Assembly (NCBI GenBank): GCA_951406725.2
Contig: OX597820.1
Coordinates: 38,564,001-38,628,000, forward strand
DNA: 64,000 nt
Source: Octopus vulgaris
Taxonomy: Eukaryota
Reading direction: 5' to 3'
Shown in pieces: positions 2,959-56,039 of the stretch. The notes beneath the pieces are model-generated. The model saw only the letters and a list, made by a program, of their open reading frames with translations, was not told the DNA's origin and did no database searches. The position numbers and the translations under genes are program-made. How positions within the stretch are numbered: position 1 is the stretch's first letter; the number at the start of each line of letters is the position of its first letter.

Positions 2959-3291
2959 CATATGTATACAAATATGTGTGTGTGCGTGCGTGTACATATA
3001 TGTACATATATATCTATATCTATCTATCTATCTATCTATCTATATATCTATATATATATATAATAGAAATATTAAAATAACTAAGTCTCTCTAAAAGAGA
3101 ATAGCGGCAGCGTTCCCGGAAAATAATAGTTATCGCCATACTAATATGGCATTCTTATAAAAATAAGAAAAAAGCTGTCCGCTTATTAGCTCCATGAGGC
3201 CATCGCCTTAAGTTAGCTATTTGATACACAAACTGTATCCATATAACCTTCGAACAAGGGAGGTCAGTCGCTCCACACTACTTGACCGGCA

Positions 3292-3333
3292 GCTACAGAC
3301 GCGTTTCGGGGTATTGCCCCTTTTCAATGCAGC
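3292..3333 (-). ncRNA. Minimal type I hammerhead ribozyme, U3-A8 core variant
   Basis: GCUGCA-UUGAAAA-GGGG caaua CCCC-GAAA-CGCG-UC-UGUAGC. Confidence 0.8.
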
Positions 3334-3686
3334 GTAGCCAGCCAGTAGGTTTCGCTTCCGACAATCTCTGTTCGATGGTTTTATTTACCTAGTTTCGGTG
3401 GAATACATCCACTTGTTTTCAATAATAGAAATATTAAAATAACTAAGTCTCTCTAAAAGAGAATAGCGGCAGCGTTCCCGGAAAATAATAGTTATCGCCA
3501 TACTAATATGGCATTCTTATAAAAATAAGAAAAAAGCTGTCCGCTTATTAGCTCCATGAGGCCATCGCCTTAAGTTAGCTATTTAATATTTCTATTATTG
3601 AAAACAAGTGGATGTATTCCACCGAAACTAGGTAAATAAAACCATCGAACAGAGATTGTCGGAAGCGACACCTACTGGCTGGCTAC

Positions 3687-3728
3687 GCTGCATTGAAAAG
3701 GGGCAATACCCCGAAACGCGTCTGTAGC
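3687..3728 (+). ncRNA. Minimal type I hammerhead ribozyme, U3-A8 core variant
   Basis: Same motif; stem I GCUGCA/UGUAGC, stem II GGGG/CCCC, palindromic ACGCGU stem III, GUC site. Confidence 0.8.
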
Positions 3729-4047
3729 TACCGGTCAAATAGTGTGGAGCGACTGACCTCCCTTGTTCGAAGATTATATGGATACAGTTTGTGTATCAAA
3801 TAGCTAACTTAAGGCGATGGCCTCATGGAGCTAATAAGCGGACAGCTTTTTTCTTATTTTTATAAGAATGCCATATTAGTATGGCGATAACTATTATTTT
3901 CCGGGAACGCTGCCGCTATTCTCTTTAGAGAGACTTAGTTATTTTAATATTTCTATCATTGAAAACAAGTGGATGTATTCCACCGAAACTAGGTAAATAA
4001 AACCATCGAACAGAGATTGTCGGAAGCGACACCTACTGGCTGGCTAC

Positions 4048-4089
4048 GCTGCATTGAAAAGGGGCAATACCCCGAAACGCGTCTGTAGC
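4048..4089 (+). ncRNA. Minimal type I hammerhead ribozyme, U3-A8 core variant
   Basis: Identical motif 361 bp downstream of the previous copy. Confidence 0.8.
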
Positions 4090-4248
4090 TGCCGGTCAAG
4101 TAGTGTGGAGCGACTGACCTCCCTTGTTCGAAGGTTATATGGATACAGTTTGTGTATCAAATAGCTAACTTAAGGCGATGGCCTCATGGAGCTAATAAGC
4201 GGACAGCTTTTTTCTTATTTTTATAAGAATGCCATATTAGTATGGCGA

Positions 4249-4301
<53 letters not shown>

Positions 4302-4312
4302 ATATATATATA

Positions 4313-5191
4313 GATATATAAAACTCAACTTGTGTGTCTGTGTGTGTATCTGTGTGTGTGTCTGTGTGTGTATCTGTGTGTGTGTCTGTGTGTGTATCTG
4401 TGTGTGTGTCTGTGTGTTTAACTTCCCGGCACATCTCCTCCTAGCCAACAAATCGTAGAAGCACCAAAAATGGGTGACTTAAATTTTAGGCGGATGAAAA
4501 TTGAACTGCGCTATTTCTGTTCCGAAATTCATCTCGCAAGTGCAAAAATCGATAATGTGTTTGTTTAGGCCTTATCCCATGCATTGAATAGTGAACTTTA
4601 CTCAGTCAGCTGTTTGACGTGAACTGTGTTCACCACGCGTGCAAGCATGCATATATTGCATGAAAAAAAAAATCAAGGTATAAAAACCAATCGCCGTAAA
4701 CATTGTAGAAATTCGGCAAAGAAATGAATTTTCGGGATGTAGCCTGGAGTTTTTTTTTCGTATTAATCGTTTGGACTTTGTGAATACATACCAATTGTTT
4801 TCATAACATTTTAAACGCTTTGAATTAAATGCGACCATTTTGCGTTGAGTCTGCAGTTTGAATCACTTTAACCAAATTTTAGCAGGCCGGATTTTTGATC
4901 ATCATGATACATCACCAGCGACTCCCTGAAACTCTCCCCTGAAATCCTCGTTGAGAAATACTGATCAAAAAGAATAATTCAACAATGCAATTATTTGATC
5001 AACAAAAATTTATGAAACGCTTCTACGTACTTCCTATTGAGGAAATGGAACACATAAGCGCAAAAATAGAGGGCATTAAATGCTTGATTTTAAAACCAAA
5101 ATAATTAAATTTTGATTGAACTTCATCCAAGTTTAGCTTAATTCGCGCGTGCATAGAACGCACGAGCGCACGAGCCGGGCAATACTGCTAG
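4313..5191 (+). mobile_element. Non-autonomous Helitron-like element
   Basis: TATATAAAA start, (TG/TCTG) microsatellite near the 5' end, 3' GCCGGG..CTGCTAG|T end resembling 59585-60107. Confidence 0.6.
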
Positions 5192-10955: not shown

Positions 10956-12510
10956 GATTGATTGATTGATTGATTCTAGTTTCAGCTTATGAGCTGTGGC
11001 CATGCTGGGGCACCGCCATTTGGTGTTGCTACTTGGTTTCACTTCATGGAGGCTTTCTAGCAACTGCTATTTGGTGCATGAGAGAGTTCGATGCAGCTGC
11101 CCTCATCTGCCCCTCCTGCCGTGAAGTTGGTTCATCTGGGACACCTGACAGGAAGAGATCCAGCTTCATTTTAAAGACATCTGTATCCACCCCATGCAGG
11201 TCTCTTAGGTTCTTCGGGAGGATATTGAAGAGCTGTGGGCCTCGGAAGCCCAGGCTATCACAGAATCTTGTCCTACATCTTGATGGCAGGTTTGGAGTCC
11301 TAGGCACCACGCAGTGGCGCCCAGTTCTGGCATTTGCGTAACTCTCGATGCCAAAGTTCAGGACACTTCCCTCCAGGATCTTCCAGATGTATATTATGGC
11401 ATATCTTTCCCGCCTACGCTCCAGGGAATATAATTTTAATCTCTTGAGTCTTTCCCAGTAGCTTACATTCTGCATAGAGGCTATCTTCTTTGTGTAGCTT
11501 CGTTGGATCGCCTCAAGTTCTGTGATCAACTTGACACTGGATGGTGACCATAGCTGAGAGCAATAGTCAAAGTGGCTTAGGACAAGTGTCTTCCAGAGGA
11601 CCATCATGGTTTCTTGTTCTCTTGTTCTAAAGGTTCTAAGAATCCATCCAGCCAGCCGTCTACATTTCATTGTCAGTTTAGCAACATGTACATGAAAGGT
11701 CGCGTCATCACTCATGTGAATACCCAGGTCACGCACTGATTGTGCCTCTGGGATTGCAATCCCTCCGGGTCCAGTGTATTCATTGGGTATTGCATTCAGT
11801 TTTGCATGCTGATAGTATAAAGCTTGAAACTTTCCAGCATTGAACTGCATGCTATTCTTTTCAGCCCACTTGTATATTTCGTCCAGCTCACATTGCAGGT
11901 GTTTAGTGTCCTCAGGGTTCTGTATTGCCTGTGAGACTTTTGTATCATCTGCATAACTTGTGATCGTGGCTCTCTGCGTGGCTGAGGGCATGTCTGAGAG
12001 GGCCATTATGAACAGTAGTGGTCCCAGAACAGTGCCCTGCGGAACACCGCTCACTATTTGTGTGTTAATGGAGGTGGCCCCATTGGCTACTACCACCTGA
12101 CTTCTATCCTTCAGAAAGTCATGAAGCCATTCTCCAAGTTTTCCAACTATGTTGAGATCACGCAGTTTGTGACATATCATTCCATGATCGACTTTATCAA
12201 AGGCCTTTGCAAAGTCGAGATATATCACTTCCACATTTGAGTGGTTGAGCAGCCGTTTCAGCACCCAGTCATAGTGTTGTAGGAGCTGAGTTAAACAGCT
12301 TCTCCCTGGTCGGAAACCATGTTGGGTGTCGGGCAGCAAGTCATTCTCTTCAAGGAAGGTGATCAGCTTCCTTCTGACTATTCGTTCCATGACCTTGCTG
12401 ATGTGTGAGGTCAGAGAGATAGGTCTATAGTTCTTGGCTTCCGCTCTGCTACCTCCTTTATGAATGGGGCATATTTTACCTTCCTTCAGTTTTCCTGGAA
12501 GTTTGCCGCT
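10956..12510 (-). mobile_element. 5'-truncated CR1-group LINE with (TCAA)n tail
   Basis: RT ORF, 3' UTR and (ATCA)n tail; the frame stays open upstream of the ATG (KNYRPISLTSH). Confidence 0.9.
11044..12390 (-). CDS. LINE reverse transcriptase (partial ORF2)
   Basis: QHGFRPGRSCLTQL, YLDFAKAFDKV, SGVPQGTVLGPLLF, YADD, RDLGI motifs; no stops. Confidence 0.9.
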   Translation of the reverse strand: MERIVRRKLITFLEENDLLPDTQHGFRPGRSCLTQLLQHYDWVLKRLLNHSNVEVIYLDFAKAFDKVDHGMICHKLRDLNIVGKLGEWLHDFLKDRSQVVVANGATSINTQIVSGVPQGTVLGPLLFIMALSDMPSATQRATITSYADDTKVSQAIQNPEDTKHLQCELDEIYKWAEKNSMQFNAGKFQALYYQHAKLNAIPNEYTGPGGIAIPEAQSVRDLGIHMSDDATFHVHVAKLTMKCRRLAGWILRTFRTREQETMMVLWKTLVLSHFDYCSQLWSPSSVKLITELEAIQRSYTKKIASMQNVSYWERLKRLKLYSLERRRERYAIIYIWKILEGSVLNFGIESYANARTGRHCVVPRTPNLPSRCRTRFCDSLGFRGPQLFNILPKNLRDLHGVDTDVFKMKLDLFLSGVPDEPTSRQEGQMRAAASNSLMHQIAVARKPP

Positions 12511-12755
12511 CGAATCGATCTAATTAATTGCATTTCTGACAAACTCTACCGAAGATTTATAGATGTAAGTGTAAGTAAAACTACATATTACATTAGTAAT
12601 GAAACAATTGTATAGAGTCAATCTATTTTATTCGTTGTATTTCACTTTCCTTCCGTTAAATGTATGTTGATTCTAGTTGGAAACTGATCTTCTGTGGTTG
12701 CTTCGGAGCTATTTTTAGCACTAGAGTTATCCACATAGTGGATAACTCTCTAATA

Positions 12756-21958: not shown

Positions 21959-22010
21959 CAACACCGAAAAAAACCTTAACAATGTGAACCTAGGTTCGGA
22001 ATTTCTCCAC

Positions 22011-22056
22011 GACACCTGATGAAGGCTGGAAGGTATATCAGTCGAAACGTTGTGTT
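22011..22056 (+). ncRNA. Minimal type I hammerhead ribozyme
   Basis: GACAC-CUGAUGA-A-GGCUGG..UCAGUC-GAAAC-GUU-GUGUU; palindromic ACGU stem III. Confidence 0.8.
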
Positions 22057-23051
22057 AACAACTAACAAGATGAGGACAAATATCCGTCAATTGTAAATAA
22101 TGTACATAATTCCTCATGTTTTAAATATAGAACTGAACAGGTGTAATCAGCATCTACCATAGAATCTAACTTACCCCTTCTTAGGTGCTAAAGCATTTTA
22201 TATGTCGCAGGGAATACAGAATCGTTACAAACATAAAGAAAATAATTTAAGCGTGAGTATATATATTCATTTCTACACAAATTATATTGACGAAACATTC
22301 ATAAAATATCCAGCAAATACGAAAGAATCGGTAGATTTCGAGTGAATCGAAATTAAAGAATAGGCATTATTATTGGGGCTTCTACACAGCGGAGGTGAAA
22401 TATTAATTCAAAAGTAGGGAAGAACTGAGTCCAAATTGCTGTACTCGGTATATAAATTTACGTATGTATGTATCAATATTGAGACGCATAGTTGTATGAG
22501 AGAGTAGTGGTGCAATTTTGAAATCACGCCAATCTGCAAGAGAAAGTCATGTATAAGGACATTACTGTTTCTGAAATCGAAATTGCAACACAATCAGTTT
22601 TAAATTTTATATATTAAATCATTTCCCTCTTCTTTGGAAGAATTTGCATTATTCATAAAAGGTCATATATACAATAAAAAGTGCATGCACGAGTACATAC
22701 ATTTATTAATATATACGTACAATCATTCATATATATATACATACGTACATAAATGCATGCGCACACACATATACACAAACACCCACACAGACACATACAC
22801 ACACAAACCTTTTAATTTTTAGTACTGCGGACTACAATGTATTGATCCCAGGAATATGGACTGTGATCTTAAATATCATATATATATAGTTCAAATTTAT
22901 TTTTAAAAAAGACGAAGACGATGTGTTGGAACAACAAGCAAGTGTATTGGTTTCACACTCGGGAAAAATGGGTAAGTCTTTTGAGTTTCGGTAGAAAAGA
23001 ATAACAAGAAATAGAGCATGAAGAAAAAAACGTGTTAAGTTCAGTGGTCCG

Positions 23052-23192
<141 letters not shown>

Positions 23193-23311
23193 ATATATAT
23201 ATTGTTATATTTCGGAATGGTCATTTTGCCAGTTTAGCCAATAAAAACACACGCACTATATATTTGGTGTTACTTTGCTTCAGTGTTATTTATTTTTTAC
23301 ATTAATCTTAA

Positions 23312-24174
23312 ACTCAGCCATTGCGGACAATGCCAAATTCAATATTTTGATGGCAGAACTCGTCAGAATAATGAGAAATGTGTCACGCATGTGCGAGCCA
23401 ACAGATTTAAAGAGACACATACAATATTTCATTCACCGCATGCAGTTCTTATGTTACAGCCATAAAGAAAGGATCAGAGTATACAAAGGAGCCATGAAGA
23501 AATTTGATAATATATTATGTAATGATAGGAATGGGATTTGCCCACTCTATAGGAACAAGTCATGGAACACTATAGTAAGGACAAAAAAGAAAATATGGAA
23601 GGCTAACTCTTGGTTTGATAGCCATATATACAAGAGTGTCATGTTCGTTGACACCACCCCTAGAGGTGAACTGGCGTACCGCTTAAGAAGGACCCTAGAC
23701 AAACTTAAGCTAAGGATTAAGGTTGTTGAAAAGCCAGGCAACCTTATCGAATCTATAATTGGTAGAACCTACCCTTTTAGTAGAACCCCCTGTACGGATA
23801 AGTACTGTACTGTATGCAGATTTAGCCCACAAACAAACTGTAAAGCCAGAAATGTAGTCTATAGTATAAGATGTATAGAGGGACGATGCAGTAACAAGAC
23901 AACGACATACGAAGGGGAAACGGCAAGAATCATAGGAGAGCGGGTAAATGACCATTGGAGACAACTCAAGGAAGGTAAAAGCTCATCGATTCTGTACCAA
24001 CACGCCGAGCAAGAACACAGGGGATCAATCAACAACATAGAAATTAAAATATTGTCCACACATAGAACAGATGCAACAATCAGACAAATTACAGAAGCTA
24101 CACACATAATAGAAAATAAAACTAGCCTGAATAGAAAACTAGAATGGAACACTAGCACACACCACAACAGATGA
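23312..24174 (+). CDS. PLE polyprotein C-terminus (RT thumb/linker plus GIY-YIG endonuclease), partial
   Basis: CTDKYCTVC..C KARNVVYSIRC...YEGETARIIGERVNDH..QH..E..LN; the first ~12 codons of the track ORF come from the inverted arm. Confidence 0.85.
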
Positions 24175-33144: not shown

Positions 33145-36055
33145 CCCCAGAGAAAACAAAACCTGGGAAGAAATCAAACCTGGAGAAGTAAAATTGAAAA
33201 AGAGATTGAATTTATGAGAGGGGAAATATCAATATTAAATGAACTAATATGTGGAAATGATGAAGAGAAAATTTGGATCCTCACCAAGAGAAGAACTGAT
33301 ATCAATAAAAGAAACGCTGAAACAAAAAGTCCAAGCAAAAGCCCAAAGAATACGAAGATTTGAGAAGAGAAACAAGTTTTACAAGCAAAATAAGCTGTTC
33401 ACATCCAATGCCAAAAAATTCTACAGAGAAATAGGGAAGGAGAAAGTAACCGTTAAAGAACCCCCTCCCATGGAAGAAGTTCAAAACTTTTGGAAAAGGA
33501 TTTGGAGTGACAAGAAGACGTACAACATAAATGCAGACTGGATTATACAAACTGAAGGATCCTACCAAAATTTACAACAACAAGCATGGGAAGACATCAC
33601 AATAGGAGACCTAAGAAAGGCACTCACGAAGGCCCATAATTGGAAATCCCCGGTAAAGATAGGGTGCCGAATTTCTGGCTCGCATCGCTCCCGTGCGCAC
33701 ACGGTAAGCTAGTTCAGCTGCTCAATGGAATTATGAGAGACCCAAAGAAAACACCTGAATGGTTAGCAAGTGGCATTACTTACCTACTCCCAAAGAATAA
33801 CGAAACCAACCTTCCAAAAAACTATCGGCCTATAACCTGTCTATCCACCACGTATAAAATCCTAACATCTATCCTGGCGGAGAAAACATATGCATTCATG
33901 GAGAAGAACGATATTTTCCCCACTGAACAAAAAGGGTGCCGCCGAGGCTCTTACGGATGCAAAGATCAACTGCTAATCAATCGTATGATCCTTGAGAACT
34001 GTCACAACAAGCGCAGAAATCTCAGCACCGCATGGATTGACTATAAAAAGGCCTTCGACAGTATACCGCATCCATGGATCTTGAGATCGCTGGACATCTT
34101 CAAAATTTCCCCTGTGATTTCAAACTTCCTGAAGCACAATATGTCGTTGTGGAATACGAATCTCCAATTATACCACTCTAATGGAGTACTTACCTCAGAA
34201 AATATAAACATCAACTGTGGAATTTTTCAAGGTGACTCACTTTGACCTTTAATATTCTGCATAGCCCTAATACCCCTTACAAGTGAATTAAACAGAACAG
34301 GGTATGGGTATAAAATTGCCAATAAAAAAATAAGCCATCTATTTTATATGGATGACTTAAAACTTTATGGTAAAGACAATAATGAAATTGAAGGCCTATT
34401 GCGCACCGTGAAATCATTCAGCGATGACATCGGGATGGAGTTTGGACTTGAGAAGTGTGCCAAGGCCACTTTCCAGAAAGGGAAAGTGAAGACCACAAAT
34501 TCAGTCGTGTTAGATGTTGACACAGTCATAAGAGAGCTTGAGCAAGAACAAACATACAAATATTTAGGGATAAATGAAGGCTCTGGTATTCAGCATGCAA
34601 GCATGAAAGAGAAAATCAGGAAGGAATGTTATAGGAGAGTTCGTGCAGTCCTGAAATCTGAACTAAATGCACGTAACAAGGTGTTAGCTATAAATTCCCT
34701 AGCAGTTCCAGTTGTTACTTATGTGTTGAACTGGAATATGAGTGAAGTAAAGAATATAGATAGAAAAATACGCAAGCTGCTGAGTTGTAATAGGATGCAC
34801 CACCCAAAGGCAGACGTAGATCGCCTTTACCTTCCCAGAGCCCAAGGAGGTCGAGGCCTGATCCAATTTGAACTAGCTTACAAAACAACCACAATTGGAC
34901 TGGCCAAATATCTCGAAATATCGAATGACTGGATGCTAAAGCTCGTGGAAAATCACGAGAGACGAAAGAAGCTTCATTCTATCATCAAGGAAAGCAAAAA
35001 ATTTGCTATTGATCTCGTGCAGGATACCCAAACTGAACAACCCGAGGGAAGTACGGCAACTATTGTTGCAAAGAAGGTGAAAATGATGGCAATGAAAAAA
35101 GCGCACGAGCAATTGGCTGATAGGTGGGAGGAGAAACCTCTGCACGGCAAATATGTGACCCGCAGCAAACAAGCTGATGTTGACCAGAAGCAAACTCATC
35201 AGTGGCTGCGGAGCTCAGGGCTAAAAGCAGAGAGCGAAGGTTTCATCCTGGCTGCTCAAGACCAAAGCCTATCAACCCGGAACTACCAGGCCAATGTGAT
35301 GAAAAATGGAGCAGACCCAAAATGCCGATTCTGCAACGACATGATTGAAACAGTGGACCACCTAATCTCTGGATGTAAAGTCTTAGCACCAGTGGAGTAT
35401 AAATTAAGACATGACAGAGTTGGCCAATATCTCCACTGGCTAATAAGTCGGCATTACAATATCAAAACTGCCGAGTGGTATAAGTGGTATAATCACCACC
35501 CTGAGGCTGTAACTGAAGGAGAAAATGTAACCATTCTGTGGGACTTTCCAGTACATACAGACCGAACCATCAAGGCCAATAAACCAGATATTGTTGTGAA
35601 AGACCAAAACAATAAAGTTTGCTTATTGATCGACATGAGCATCCCCTGTGATCATAATATCTCAGCGAAAGAGTTTGACAAGCTCAGAAAATATAAAGAC
35701 CTACTCATTGAAATTGAGAAAATGTGGCATCTCAAGGCGGTTACAATACCAGTGATCGTAGGAGCACTAGGAATGATCAAGAAGGGAACCGAAAATTATA
35801 TGAGAATGATCCCTGGCTTACCATCCCTGCAAGAAGTGCAAAACATTGTCTTAACTGGTACATCACACGTATTGAGAAGAGCATTGTCGATGTGAGAACT
35901 GTTGCTGCTCATGTATTTTAATTTAACTTTAAAAAAAAAAAAAAAAAAATGAACGAACTACTGAGTTTGGTTTAATGGCCTACCAATATACACTATGAGT
36001 TTCTTTGCCCTAGGAGTCGGGAAGGCACTCGGCAAGAAATGGAAGAAAATTTGAA
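33145..36055 (+). mobile_element. Young 5'-truncated R4/Dong-type LINE (RT, CCHC, restriction-like endonuclease)
   Basis: NYRPITCL, WIDYKKAFDS, GIFQGDSL*PL, YMDD, CRFC..H..C, RHD, KPDIVV..IDM; frameshift ~33650 and stop at 34243. Confidence 0.92.
33251..35895 (+). pseudogene. Disrupted single ORF of the R4/Dong element
   Basis: Three track ORFs (33251, 33640, 34348) form one polyprotein across a frameshift and a TGA. Confidence 0.85.
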
Positions 36056-36091
36056 AGAAGAAAAAAAAAAAAGTAATGATAATAATAATAA

Positions 36092-36824
36092 GCCCAAGAC
36101 CAAAGCCTCCCCACCAGAAATTACCAAAAACATGATTATGAAAAGAAATATTACAAGTAACTGCAGAATATGTGGAGATGGACAAGAAACAATAAATCAT
36201 ATTATCTCTAGCTGCCCAGTTCTGGCTAAGAAGGAATATATTCACAGACATGACAGAGTTGGAACCTACATACATTGGAAGCTATGCCAACATTATGGAA
36301 TAACAACAGAAAAAAGATGGTATAGGCACACACCAGAAAAGGTCACAGAAAACGAGAAAGCAACCATACTCTGGGATATGCCGATACACACAGATAGAGA
36401 AATTAAGGCCAACAGACCAGATATAGTTGTCAGAGATCATGAAGAAAAAAATGCTTTCTAATTGATGTATCAATACCGGCTGATGACAACGTGTCTCTAA
36501 AAGAAATGGAGAAACTCTCAAAATACAAAGACCTGGAAATAGAGGTAACTAGAATGTGGAATCTGAAAACAGAAACAATTCCTATCATAGTAGGTGCATT
36601 AGGCATGATAAAAAAATATTCAGACAAATACATAACAAAAACACCGGGACTTACAAACACATATAACATACAGAAAATTGGACTACTAGGCACTGCACAA
36701 ATCCTACGCAGAACACTTTCCGTACAATAACCATCAGAGCATCACAACAAATCACAGCACATACCCAAGGCATACAGAGCTGCGCTCGGTAGTGAAGTGA
36801 AAGCACGCTATAAAAATAAAGCTA

Positions 36825-39728: not shown

Positions 39729-40882
39729 CTAGGTGTGTCGAAAATGTTGTCGCGATTAAATAAATTCTCGTAACTTTCATTTTCTGTCTTCCATTTACTA
39801 TGTATATCAATTTTCTCGCCTGTTTCTACAACTTAAGTTCAGTTTATATATATATATATAACTCTGCAGCCGAAGCGACTCGAAACACAGTCAGTTTATG
39901 GGAAAGAATGCTTGAATGAAAGAACTTGCAGAACAGGGTTAGCAAATTTCAGAAGTGGAGATGTCACCCTTGCAGATGAAGATCGAATCGGGCGTCCAGT
40001 TGAGTTTGATGATAAGCTCCTTGAGGGATTACTTGAAGAAAATCTTGCATTATCAGTTGAAGAATTGGCAATAAAGCTTACTTCAAATCATACAACTGTT
40101 CATTGTCATCTTGGAAAGGTTCCTAAACGTGGAAAATATTTGCCTCAGGAATTGTCCGAAAGCAACCGCAAGTCCCGAGTTGACATCTACTCTTCTCTCC
40201 ATTGCCGCGAACTCATTCCACCCTTTTTGGATAGATATGTGACTGATGACGAAAAATGGATCTTCTATCGAAATGTTCAACGTCGTAAACAGTGGCTTGG
40301 TAAAAATGAAAATGCTCAACCATAACTTCATGGGAAAAAGGTTCTTCTATCTATCTGGTGGAATGGAAAAGGAGTAATTCACTTTGAATTGTTACCACCG
40401 TATGCAACAATCAATGCTCAAGTCAACTGTCAGCAATTAGAGCGTTTGAACCGAGCTTTGAAAAAGAAAAGACCTACTTTAGTGAATCGAAAAGGAGTGA
40501 TGTTTCATCAGGACAATACGCAACCCCACATCGCAAAGATCACATCACAGAAGATCGAAGAGCTTGTTTGGGAAAAAATTCCTCATTCACCTTATTCTCC
40601 CAACCTTTCTCCTTCAGACTACCATTTGTTTCGTACTTTACAAAATCATTTGGGGGACATAACTTTCTCAAGCCAGGAGGAAGTTGAAATTGACATTTCA
40701 GAGTTCTTCGCTTCGAAACCAAAAGAGCTTTACATTGATAGGATTAAAAAGCTTGTAAATAGATGGAAGGAAGTCATAGATAATCACAGAAAGTACATTG
40801 ATTATCAAATTTCAATTAAATATAACGTTTGATCAATTTTTTTTAAATTCAAAATTCGGACATAACTTATGAGATGATCTGA
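39729..40882 (+). mobile_element. Degenerate mariner (DD34D) transposon
   Basis: VTDDEKWIFY, FHQDNTQPH, HSPYSPNLSPSDYHLF; stops and deletions. Confidence 0.9.
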
Positions 40883-54439: not shown

Positions 54440-54990
54440 CACCGTCACGTACGACTACAGTGGGCTTCACAACATCAGCATTAGCGGCATCAAGGATGGA
54501 GGTCGATAGTCTTCTCTGACGAGGGCCGGTACTGCGTTTCTACCTCGGCTGACAGAGTCAGGGCGTGGCGTAGGAGGGGTAAACACTACAGAGGCGCATA
54601 TATCCTGCAGCGAGATGCGTGGGGTGACCAAAGTATTATTGTTAGGGGTGCTATAGCCTTAATCAGAGAATTGGGATCGATGGCTTCCAAAATGTTGATG
54701 CAGGCAGAGGAAATGGCATCACAGCGCAGTGCTACGGTGATCAGATCCTAAGACCTCACATCGTGCCCTTCTTTGTGTGTCACCATAGCCACGTGTTCAA
54801 GCCGGACGATGCTCCCTCCCACACGGTCAGGGTGACCATAGATTTTCTGCGTCAGCACAACATCAGAACGATGCCGTGGTCGGCTCCCATTGCGGATTTC
54901 AACCCAGTTGAACACAAGTTGGATGAAATCCAGAGACAACTAAACCAGATGGTCTCCGGGCCGGCAAATCGTGTGGAACTGGAGACAGCA
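54440..54990 (+). mobile_element. Second Tc1-like (DD34E) transposase fragment
   Basis: VFSDEGRY..RVWRRR; FKPDDAPSH..MPWSAPIADFNPVEH. Confidence 0.75.
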
Positions 54991-56039
54991 TACACGGTAT
55001 TGAACATGTCACCCCTTACAATCTCGATGTACTGGATCCGCCCTCTTCCAGAACACATGGCAACAACCCATAGACTGCAGTCAAAGAAATTAACTTTATC
55101 AGATTTATCAGAATTTATCTCTGACATAATGGAATTAAAGCATATTTCACAGTCACACACGTCTCGCGTTTCTTTTGGAGTTCAATGTATTTTTGTTGGG
55201 ATTTTTCAATCTATGAAAACTTATCTCTCATTGGCTATTTGTTTTAAGACAACATATTTAGTGTATTTCTTGGCAATATTTTCAACTACTACGCTTCTTC
55301 TTCGTTTCTTGCCCTGTCTTCCTTCGTATGAAATAGTTAAAATGACTTAAAATCGGTGTAAGATATTCAAAGTCGTATAAGATATTCAAAGTCTTGTAAT
55401 CTTATTTTATCTATAATTACAGGCATGTATTCTTCAAATATTCTATTTTATCCCTACTGTAGTCATTCCCCAGAAGCAAAAGAAAATTATTCAGAGAATA
55501 TTTAAAAAGATTGATGGATTATCTTATATTTTATTGATGAAAAATAATATAAGCACTTGGAAACATCTAACGAATATTAATAAAGTTCTTGGATCATCAC
55601 AACAAAAAGTTAATGTTTAGTTATGGAAGTAAAACTCTTCCAAGTTTGCTCAGATCTAAAGTAGAAAGTCAAATCAATCATGTATCATTGTTTCAAAGAT
55701 GGGAATGCATTAAGATCTGGTACTGTATGTATATGGAAACATGACCAAATTACCAAGGATTTTTCTACAGATGCCTTTTCTGTTGAATTTCTGCAACCGT
55801 TACCTTAGAGAATTCACATTCATACACATGCTCATTCAGAAATGAGAATGTTCAGTTGGCTGGAATGTTTTATCATTGAACGTAGTCATTTATCATTACA
55901 CCGACGAGAAAACTGGAATTTAAAACGCTATCTAATATTATAAAAAAGATAAATGTCAAATTTACTTTCAATTATACTTTCTTATTTCATAAAAACGAAG
56001 ATAGGGAGACTGCACGCGAGAGAAACTGAGAGAAAGTGA

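What the first reader, a model, noticed from the sequence alone, without database searches (positions are those of the whole stretch)
3060..4253. Young 361-bp tandem retrozyme-like element with a compensatory U3-A8 hammerhead core
Seen: three identical motifs GCUGCA-UUGAAAA-GGGGcaauaCCCC-GAAA-CGCG-UC-UGUAGC, one per 361-bp unit, with no coding capacity. The canonical CUGANGA is replaced by UUGAAAA, meaning C3U and G8A change together. Known: positions 3 and 8 form a tertiary base pair; minimal type I HHRs with palindromic stem III occur in PLEs and metazoan non-LTR retrozymes, work as dimers and can yield circular RNAs. Inference: cleavage at 3722 and 4083 would release a 361-nt monomer or circRNA. 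Standard CUGANGA searches would miss this family.
Basis: partly seen in the sequence, partly recalled or inferred. Interest (0 to 1): 0.9.

Follow-up and report, generated by a model that had tools for sequence, protein, structure and literature searches.

The report
Retrozyme inserted by Penelope-like machinery
This is one young copy of a roughly 1,000-copy family of 362-base non-coding repeats that carry a hammerhead RNA motif predicted to cut itself; its insertions have the two-armed, two-start-site layout of Penelope-like jumping genes, which likely copy it from a single RNA, possibly a circle, so it is a variant of a known class (retrozymes) that offers a clean way to test how that copying works.

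Summary
The motif is real, but this is not a three-unit tandem. One arm of 1.5 units lies inverted (3060-3588, minus) against a direct arm of 1.9 units (3575-4255), inside (TA)n. The genome holds about 1,000 insertions.

U3-A8 is the family consensus (100 of the first 100 listed of 899 matches). It is shared by sister 358-364-nt families and by intact Penelope-like elements (RT + GIY-YIG). It switches to C3-G8 in one sister subfamily. The pair is already in print (Perreault 2011; Cervera 2014), so it is not new. The stems covary across families that are only 50% identical.

Insertions do not end at the cut site. They end at two fixed points 172-178 and 233-239 nt downstream, one per arm in 57 of 58 two-armed copies, and 138 of 151 ends sit in (TA)n. 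All 159 crossings of the cut site are free of indels, and the two arms share a haplotype. This is the Penelope fingerprint.

Cleavage, expression and RNA circles are not shown, and the partner element is not identified. This scan found the same kind of element before, in this genome and another. Verdict: a new variant of a known kind.

The parts
2996..3059 (.). (TA)n/(TATC)n microsatellite, left flank (target)
3060..3588 (-). Inverted arm, 529 bp: unit positions 72-361 then 1-238 (u1 = first base after the predicted cut). Its outer end is the 'long' start site (u238)
3060..3122 (-). 63-bp 'tail' between the two start sites, present at this end only
   Evidence: tail concept from PMC8557442 and PMC11167929
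3292..3333 (-). Hammerhead motif of the inverted arm; predicted cut after C3298
3575..3588 (.). Junction of the two 5'-truncated arms, joined through a short shared stretch
3575..4255 (+). Direct arm, 681 bp (1.9 units): u214-361, u1-361, u1-172. Its outer end is the 'short' start site (u172-175)
3687..3728 (+). Hammerhead 1: stem I 3687-3692 with 3723-3728, U3 3693, A8 3698, stem II 3700-3703 with 3709-3712, palindrome 3716-3721, predicted cut after 3722
   Evidence: stem I pair probability 0.84-0.89
3723..4083 (+). Predicted monomer, 361 nt (commonest family length 362). It carries three private G>A changes in the 5' strand of the long stem
3993..4143 (+). Predicted long bulged rod of about 55 bp that extends stem I, with hammerhead 2 at its tip
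   Evidence: -64.9 kcal/mol, z -6.5, 0 of 200 shuffles as stable
4048..4089 (+). Hammerhead 2: U3 4054, A8 4059, predicted cut after 4083
   Evidence: stem I pair probability 0.94-1.0
4231..4246 (+). Hairpin just before the short start site, kept in all sister families aligned
4253..4320 (.). (TA)n microsatellite, right flank (target)

Best explanation
It is a non-coding repeat family whose insertions have the two-armed, (TA)n-targeted, two-start-site layout of Penelope-like retroelements (PLEs), and it is likely copied into the genome by a borrowed PLE reverse transcriptase-endonuclease from one RNA that its hammerhead is predicted to cut to unit length and that likely often circularises. Steps: (1) inferred: a copy is transcribed through more than one unit; (2) predicted: each hammerhead folds at the tip of a ~55-bp rod, and two of them pair through the 6-nt palindrome to complete stem III and cut after GUC; (3) inferred by analogy with coral, mussel and axolotl retrozymes: the 362-nt monomer, its ends held together by stem I, is ligated into a circle; (4) inferred from insertion ends: a PLE protein nicks both strands of a (TA)n tract and starts cDNA internally, at u175 on one strand and u238 on the other; (5) inferred: each cDNA runs on past the cut site for a random number of units, and the two truncated ends join through microhomology; (6) shown: the product is an inverted, partial-tandem insertion such as this one.
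For: Ends: 151 of 168 arm pieces in 94 loci end at u170-180 or u233-239; 57 of 58 simple two-armed insertions have one of each (binomial p 2e-16). The same rule holds in 9 of 9 inverted pairs of an autonomous PLE of this genome and 12 of 12 two-armed copies of sister family B. Target: 138 of 151 ends lie in (TA)3+, against 9% background. These features are described for PLEs (PMC8557442), and a PLE protein starts internally at two sites and extends both strands in vitro (PMC11167929). Lineage: two PLE families with intact 753- and 784-aa RT + CxxC linker + GIY-YIG frames carry U3-A8 hammerheads. RNA structure: across 14 sequences of families down to 49% identity, 97.6% of cells pair and 14 of 27 pairs change on both sides; slid controls pair 28-48%. 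Continuous template: 159 of 159 crossings of the cut site have no indel; crossings per arm (35, 18, 11, 1, 1, 2; n=68) fit a geometric law, p 0.28; arrays reach 7.5 units and keep one haplotype throughout; the two arms agree at 445 of 455 marker sites, against 24% disagreement when shuffled.
Against: No cleavage, expression or circle was shown. No autonomous element with DNA similarity to the unit was found, so the partner is unnamed; one chimeric locus points instead to a PLE with a C3-G8 core. In 2 insertions a rare variant sits in the same lap of both arms but not in another lap (L024, L301), which needs a template of at least two different units, or later conversion between arms. Within the young family the hammerhead is hardly more conserved than the rest (2.4 against 2.2-2.9 rare changes per 1000 bases). 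A mismatched C3-A8 subfamily of family B spread to at least 9 loci (my count in the listing). In the anole PLE, hammerhead mutants still insert in vitro, and 8 of 9 Xenopus retrozyme dimers did not cleave. The arm-concordance control is inflated if subfamilies were active at different times.
Confidence: 0.6

Rival explanations
1. It is the same non-autonomous PLE, but copied from uncut linear multimeric transcripts. The hammerhead is active only rarely or at another stage, and circles are not the transposition template.
For: Uncut multimers also give seamless junctions. Two insertions show in-register, lap-specific variants on both arms. Hammerhead mutants of the anole PLE insert normally in vitro. 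The C3-A8 subfamily spread. No pile-up of truncations at u1-5 in the unbiased set: 0 of 68 arms, 0.7 expected.
Against: Linear copying can only shorten arrays, yet arms of 5-7.5 units occur and are uniform for locus-specific haplotypes; 12 rare variants are fixed over all laps of an insertion. Unit length stays at 358-364 nt for most monomers, and the end-joining rod is kept across 50% divergence.
Confidence: 0.27
2. Short PLE-type insertions were expanded to tandems afterwards at the DNA level (slippage, unequal crossing-over), as proposed for vertebrate retrozymes.
For: Proposed in bioRxiv 10.64898/2026.07.22.740005. It would give uniform arrays. Two arrays show alternating variants (L323, L005), and one locus is locally duplicated (L273/L275).
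Against: Arrays are 99-100% identical to the family, and their lengths follow one geometric law from 0 to 5 crossings. 33 of 68 unbiased arms already cross the cut site.
Confidence: 0.09
3. It is a satellite or a DNA-based element (MITE- or Helitron-like) whose hammerhead look is incidental.
For: The inverted arms resemble terminal inverted repeats. No RNA evidence was obtained.
Against: The arms have variable inner ends and two different fixed outer ends. Stems I and II and the 3-8 pair covary. PLEs with RT in the same genome share the layout.
Confidence: 0.03

Closest known systems
Metazoan non-LTR retrozymes (Cervera and de la Pena 2020, PMC7229834: passages and parts 2 and 4 of 6 read; Li, Clavereau and Pollet 2026, bioRxiv 10.64898/2026.07.22.740005: parts 1-3 of 5 read; supplements of neither seen)
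   Same: Non-coding 150-450-bp tandem units, one type I hammerhead each, GC under 50%, highly self-paired monomer. PLEs are proposed there as the mobilisers and the origin.
   Different: U3-A8 core (not mentioned in the parts read). Here the insertion ends carry the PLE signature directly (two start sites, inverted arm, (TA)n target), whereas the papers argue from co-occurrence and pLTR homology. Those families have shown cleavage and circles; this one has not.
Endonuclease-positive Penelope-like elements with a CX2-5CxxC linker (Neptune/Nematis type) and their insertion units (Craig et al. 2021, PMC8557442: passages read)
   Same: Partial tandems, an inverted 5'-truncated copy, a tail at one end only, (TA)n preference, hammerhead near the 3' end. 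The paper also notes non-autonomous head-to-tail Chlamys elements.
   Different: No ORF; the tail is 63 bp rather than 30-40; no sequence match to an autonomous family was found.
U3-A8 hammerheads (Perreault et al. 2011, PMC3088659: passages read; Cervera and de la Pena 2014, PMC4209133: parts 1-2 of 4 read)
   Same: The same core covariation, reported as natural and active in vitro; about 1,300 copies tied to Schistosoma mansoni Cercyon PLEs.
   Different: The Schistosoma motifs were found with the minimal-hammerhead descriptor and are heterogeneous and mostly single. These are canonical-build, near-identical and in tandem, and a sister subfamily 90% identical to family B carries C3-G8.
PAc, the Poseidon PLE of the green anole (Frangieh et al. 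2024, PMC11167929: parts 1-2 of 4 read)
   Same: Internal start of reverse transcription at two sites downstream of the hammerhead; AT-rich targets; both strands extended.
   Different: PAc is autonomous and its start site is not homologous to the target. Here both start sites end in a TA-rich motif that could pair with the nicked (TA)n (inference).

Membership tests
Type I hammerhead ribozyme | Conserved core with a 3-8 base pair, G10.1-C11.1, GAAA and NUH | tested here: met
   U3-A8 pair; G10.1-C11.1 in 14 of 14 aligned sequences; GUC site; C3-G8 in a sister subfamily
Type I hammerhead ribozyme | Stems I and II supported by covariation; loop 1-loop 2 contact residues | tested here: met
   Stem I: 4 of 6 pairs change on both sides; stem II: 2 of 4. 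U1.7 and the last A of loop II are present in 14 of 14 (contact described in PMC11875169, passages). The contact itself is inferred.
Type I hammerhead ribozyme | Stem III formed in a dimer through a palindrome | tested here: inconclusive
   The palindrome is kept through a two-base swap; 98 of the first 100 listed matches are palindromic (my count); duplex -7.5 kcal/mol. The dimer was not modelled.
Type I hammerhead ribozyme | Self-cleavage at the predicted site | not testable with these tools
   Needs in vitro transcription
Non-LTR retrozyme | Short non-coding tandem units, one type I hammerhead per unit, dispersed and mobile | tested here: met
Non-LTR retrozyme | Expression as linear and circular monomer RNA | tested here: inconclusive
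   No holder on record as RNA, and only contigs were available
Penelope-like element (non-autonomous) | Partial tandem plus inverted 5'-truncated arm, tail at one end, (TA)n target | tested here: met
   57 of 58 pair one short and one long end; 138 of 151 ends in (TA)n
Penelope-like element (non-autonomous) | Sequence similarity to the pLTR of an autonomous PLE | tested here: inconclusive
   No blastn match to the two autonomous U3-A8 families examined. The core pair and palindrome are shared. The protein search scored only 150 of 21,072 candidates, so other PLE families were not examined.
Penelope-like element (autonomous) | RT and GIY-YIG open reading frame | tested here: not met
   No frame over about 55 codons in the unit

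The most novel reading that the evidence does not exclude
These insertions are a genomic record of the unsolved Penelope integration step. A PLE protein dimer primes both target strands on ONE structured RNA circle, one protomer at each of two start sites 63 nt apart, and rolls around it with strand displacement. Ribozyme-made monomer circles (and occasionally dimer circles, which would explain the alternating and in-register variants) would then be the true transposition templates of animal retrozymes.
Probability: 0.4. Interest if true: 0.68.

Novelty: new variant of a known kind. Interest (0 to 1): 0.44.

Why it matters
The class (retrozymes), its proposed PLE origin and the U3-A8 pair are all in print. 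What this family adds is a large, young, well-resolved data set on how such RNAs are integrated: a strict rule of one start site per arm, seamless multi-lap copying, and arms that share a haplotype. Craig et al. name the formation of tandem/inverted PLE insertions as unexplained. A 362-nt RNA, intact PLE proteins in the same genome and an existing in vitro assay make the circle-template question directly testable. The genome also offers natural U3-A8, C3-G8 and C3-A8 versions on a near-identical scaffold (family B), and thousands of hammerheads that CUGANGA descriptors and Rfam miss.

Tried and rejected
Rfam scan: no hammerhead hit, only microsatellite-driven miRNA and snoRNA matches below threshold.

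RNA evidence: no RNA holder listed. Contigs of 4 of the 24 listed runs, guessed to be RNA, cover the unit in pieces; they cannot show strand, ends or circles, so they are not counted as evidence either way.

Partner search: blastn of the unit against the 3' regions of two autonomous U3-A8 families found nothing. Further core patterns gave no new large family (43 matches). Solo copies fetched with 3-4 kb upstream showed no PLE protein match adjoining the unit: a tblastn with one PLE protein hit 3 loci, all away from the element, and missed the known chimeric locus, so it is insensitive to distant PLEs.

Run-off at a cleaved 5' end: truncations at u1-5 were 7 against 1.8 expected in all 151 arms (one is a BLAST split, leaving 6) but 0 against 0.7 in the 68 unbiased arms. 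Not taken as evidence of cleavage.

A-to-G editing of the long stem: no excess (A>G 0.20 per site against T>C 0.24).

Purifying selection within the young family: not detectable.

An alternative stem I register at site 3722: minor (probability 0.11).

Literature: searches listed no paper on this family or on strict short/long end pairing in retrozymes. Most subscription papers are not held and no supplements were read; supplements of PMC7229834 and PMC4209133 may list such motifs. 'Octopus' and 'cephalopod' were my guesses as search terms; the organism was not determined.

Full report
OBSERVATION. The 42-nt motif occurs three times, at 3292-3333 on the minus strand and at 3687-3728 and 4048-4089 on the plus strand. 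The locus is therefore not three tandem units. An inverted arm of 529 bp (3060-3588) abuts a direct arm of 681 bp (3575-4255, 1.9 units of period 361), and TA-rich microsatellites flank both sides. I number the unit from the predicted cut (u1 = 3723). The inverted arm's outer end is u238 and the direct arm's is u172. No frame exceeds about 55 codons. Rfam finds no hammerhead to E 5.

FAMILY. The genome is a 2.8-Gb animal assembly. A core pattern that allowed C or U at position 3 and A or G at 8 gave 899 matches and 0 for the control; the 100 listed are all U3-A8. A 26-mer near the insertion end gave 2,358 matches; the first 100 fall in 45 loci, so there are about 1,000 insertions. Most copies are 94-100% identical to the family.

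Relaxed patterns found sister families with monomers mostly of 358-364 nt: one 82% identical to ours, and family B at 49%. A subfamily 90% identical to B has C3-G8. Of 166 C3 matches, the first 100 split 69 C3-G8 to 31 C3-A8 (my count); U3-G8 gave 26 matches against 9 for the control. Thirteen of the C3-A8 matches, at 9 loci, form one B subfamily, so a Watson-Crick 3-8 pair is not strictly needed for spread.

RNA STRUCTURE. Around each hammerhead the RNA is predicted to form a bulged rod of about 55 bp that continues stem I (z -6.5, 0 of 200 shuffles). All 14 aligned sequences fold into such a rod, and circular folds of five monomers have z -3.9 to -9.2 on the sense strand, with the antisense strand also stable (z -1.7 to -6.7). 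I chose those 14 of 38 cluster representatives because they had an intact upstream segment. On them, 97.6% of cells of the named structure pair and 14 of 27 pairs change on both sides; slid controls give 28-48%. The sequences fall into essentially two lineages, so these are few independent events. The build is the canonical metazoan type I form (6-bp stem I, 4-bp stem II, palindromic stem III; PMC4209133), with U1.7 and the last A of loop II kept in all 14 (contact described in PMC11875169). The palindrome survives a two-base swap between families. In the window, three private G>A changes weaken the rod of the first direct hammerhead (-52.5 against -64.9 kcal/mol), but stem I still forms. A transcript across the whole insertion would pair the second direct hammerhead with the inverted arm.

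INSERTION ANATOMY. I mapped arms in 94 loci: 44 picked by the end-proximal 26-mer (unbiased for the hammerhead), 24 by the hammerhead and 26 by full-length similarity; one local duplicate was dropped. Of 168 arm pieces, 151 end at u170-180 or u233-239. Among 58 simple two-armed insertions, 57 have one end of each kind, one has two long ends and none has two short ends; 32 loci had a single counted arm. 138 of 151 ends abut (TA)3+, against 9% background. Inner ends are scattered, with a five-fold excess at u35-46 in both sets. That spot lies in the rod and in a local palindrome, so stalling, fold-back joining or a transcript start could each explain it. This layout is what Craig et al. describe for PLEs. 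The two ends match the two internal start sites shown in vitro for the anole PLE.

AUTONOMOUS RELATIVES. One U3-A8 match lay 640 bp behind a GIY-YIG frame. It belongs to a young family with many intact 753-codon frames. A second family, with most of the 2,138 matches, has a 784-codon frame. Both frames score RT above the Pfam cut-off and GIY-YIG just under it, both have a CxxC linker of Neptune/Nematis type and an upstream ORF, and both carry U3-A8 hammerheads. The second family pairs one short and one tailed end in 9 of 9 inverted pairs, and family B does so in 12 of 12. Neither autonomous family matches our unit by blastn. One chimeric locus joins the 3' end of a different PLE, with a C3-G8 core, to our unit through microhomology. 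The partner remains open.

TEMPLATE. All 159 crossings of the cut site lack indels, so the template was continuous there: a circle or an uncut multimer. Crossings per arm fit a geometric law, and the longest arm has 7.5 units. Long arrays keep one haplotype in every unit. For common variants, 133 of 156 insertion-by-site cases are uniform, and 12 rare variants are fixed over all laps. The arms of an insertion agree at 445 of 455 marker sites in 61 insertions, against 24% disagreement on shuffling; subfamilies active at different times would inflate that control. Against a pure monomer circle: two insertions carry a rare variant in the same lap of both arms but not in another lap (62 comparable cases do not), and two arrays alternate. 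These fit linear or circular dimers, or later conversion. Most private variants (124 of 138) are in one copy only.

MECHANISM. Most likely, tandem transcripts cut at the hammerheads through dimer folding, monomers circularise, and a PLE protein primes both strands of a nicked (TA)n tract at u175 and u238 and copies on for a random number of laps before the two cDNAs join. The insertion product and the RNA-structure conservation are shown; transcription, cleavage, circles and the enzyme's identity are inferred. I put PLE-type mobilisation at about 0.95, an active ribozyme at about 0.8, and the whole path including circles at 0.6.

COMPARISON AND VERDICT. It works like a metazoan non-LTR retrozyme and meets the sequence criteria; expression as circles is untested. 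Retrozymes as non-autonomous PLEs is the thesis of a 2026 preprint, and the circle-to-tandem-cDNA cycle was proposed in 2020. U3-A8 is a published natural covariation. Earlier notes of this scan, looked up after my analysis, reached the same reading for other copies; they are not independent support. I rate it a new variant of a known kind, interest 0.44, mainly for the testable two-start, single-template rule.

Noticed in passing
window 22008-22060 (+): A second hammerhead-like motif with a canonical C3-G8 core, an extra base before a longer stem II and almost no stem III (minimal PLE type), just after an (AAT)n tract.
   Followed up: no
window 23245-24174 (+): 309-codon frame resembling the C-terminal half of a PLE (CxxC linker, GIY-YIG-like motif by eye); a near-identical frame lies in L139.
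   Followed up: no
window 11044-12519 (-), 33248-36461 (+), 39837-40832 (+), 54646-55350 (+): Frames that look by eye like LINE-type reverse transcriptases (first two) and mariner/Tc1-type transposases (last two); not scanned against a library.
   Followed up: no
L174:5286-6387 (+); L209:5664-4357 (-): Both autonomous U3-A8 PLE families have an upstream ORF of 370-430 codons before the RT-endonuclease frame; the one scanned has no Pfam match.
   Followed up: partly
L171:5421; L173:5612: In the 753-aa family most copies read one extra A after the GAAA of the hammerhead core, which may impair or re-register it.
   Followed up: no
L181:1480-1500 and other loci L179-L208: In the 784-aa family the hammerhead core begins right after a T-rich tract ending in CAG, like a 3' splice site; an intron end at helix I is reported for Drosophila virilis Penelope.
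   Followed up: no
L355:5731-7816: Chimeric insertion: the left arm starts as the 3' end of a GC-rich PLE (GIY-YIG frame, C3-G8 hammerhead) and continues as our unit at u291 through microhomology; a possible template switch naming a mobiliser.
   Followed up: partly
L209:1355-1: One autonomous copy runs on, after its 3' hammerhead and tail, into the start of a different PLE family (another hammerhead variant and upstream ORF): a hetero-tandem.
   Followed up: no
L323:1441-2167 (-); L005:648-2096 (+): Variants alternate between successive units, as a dimeric circular template or a two-unit duplication would give.
   Followed up: partly
L025:1501-2384: The only insertion with two long ends; its outer flanks are themselves inverted duplicates, suggesting a fold-back or assembly artefact.
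   Followed up: no
L011; L055: Rare insertions outside microsatellites; L011 shows an apparent ~10-bp target duplication.
   Followed up: no
one search run list: Half or more of the unit's sampled words are held by runs labelled as six organisms (A-F), so the family may extend to related species; the labels were not checked.
   Followed up: no
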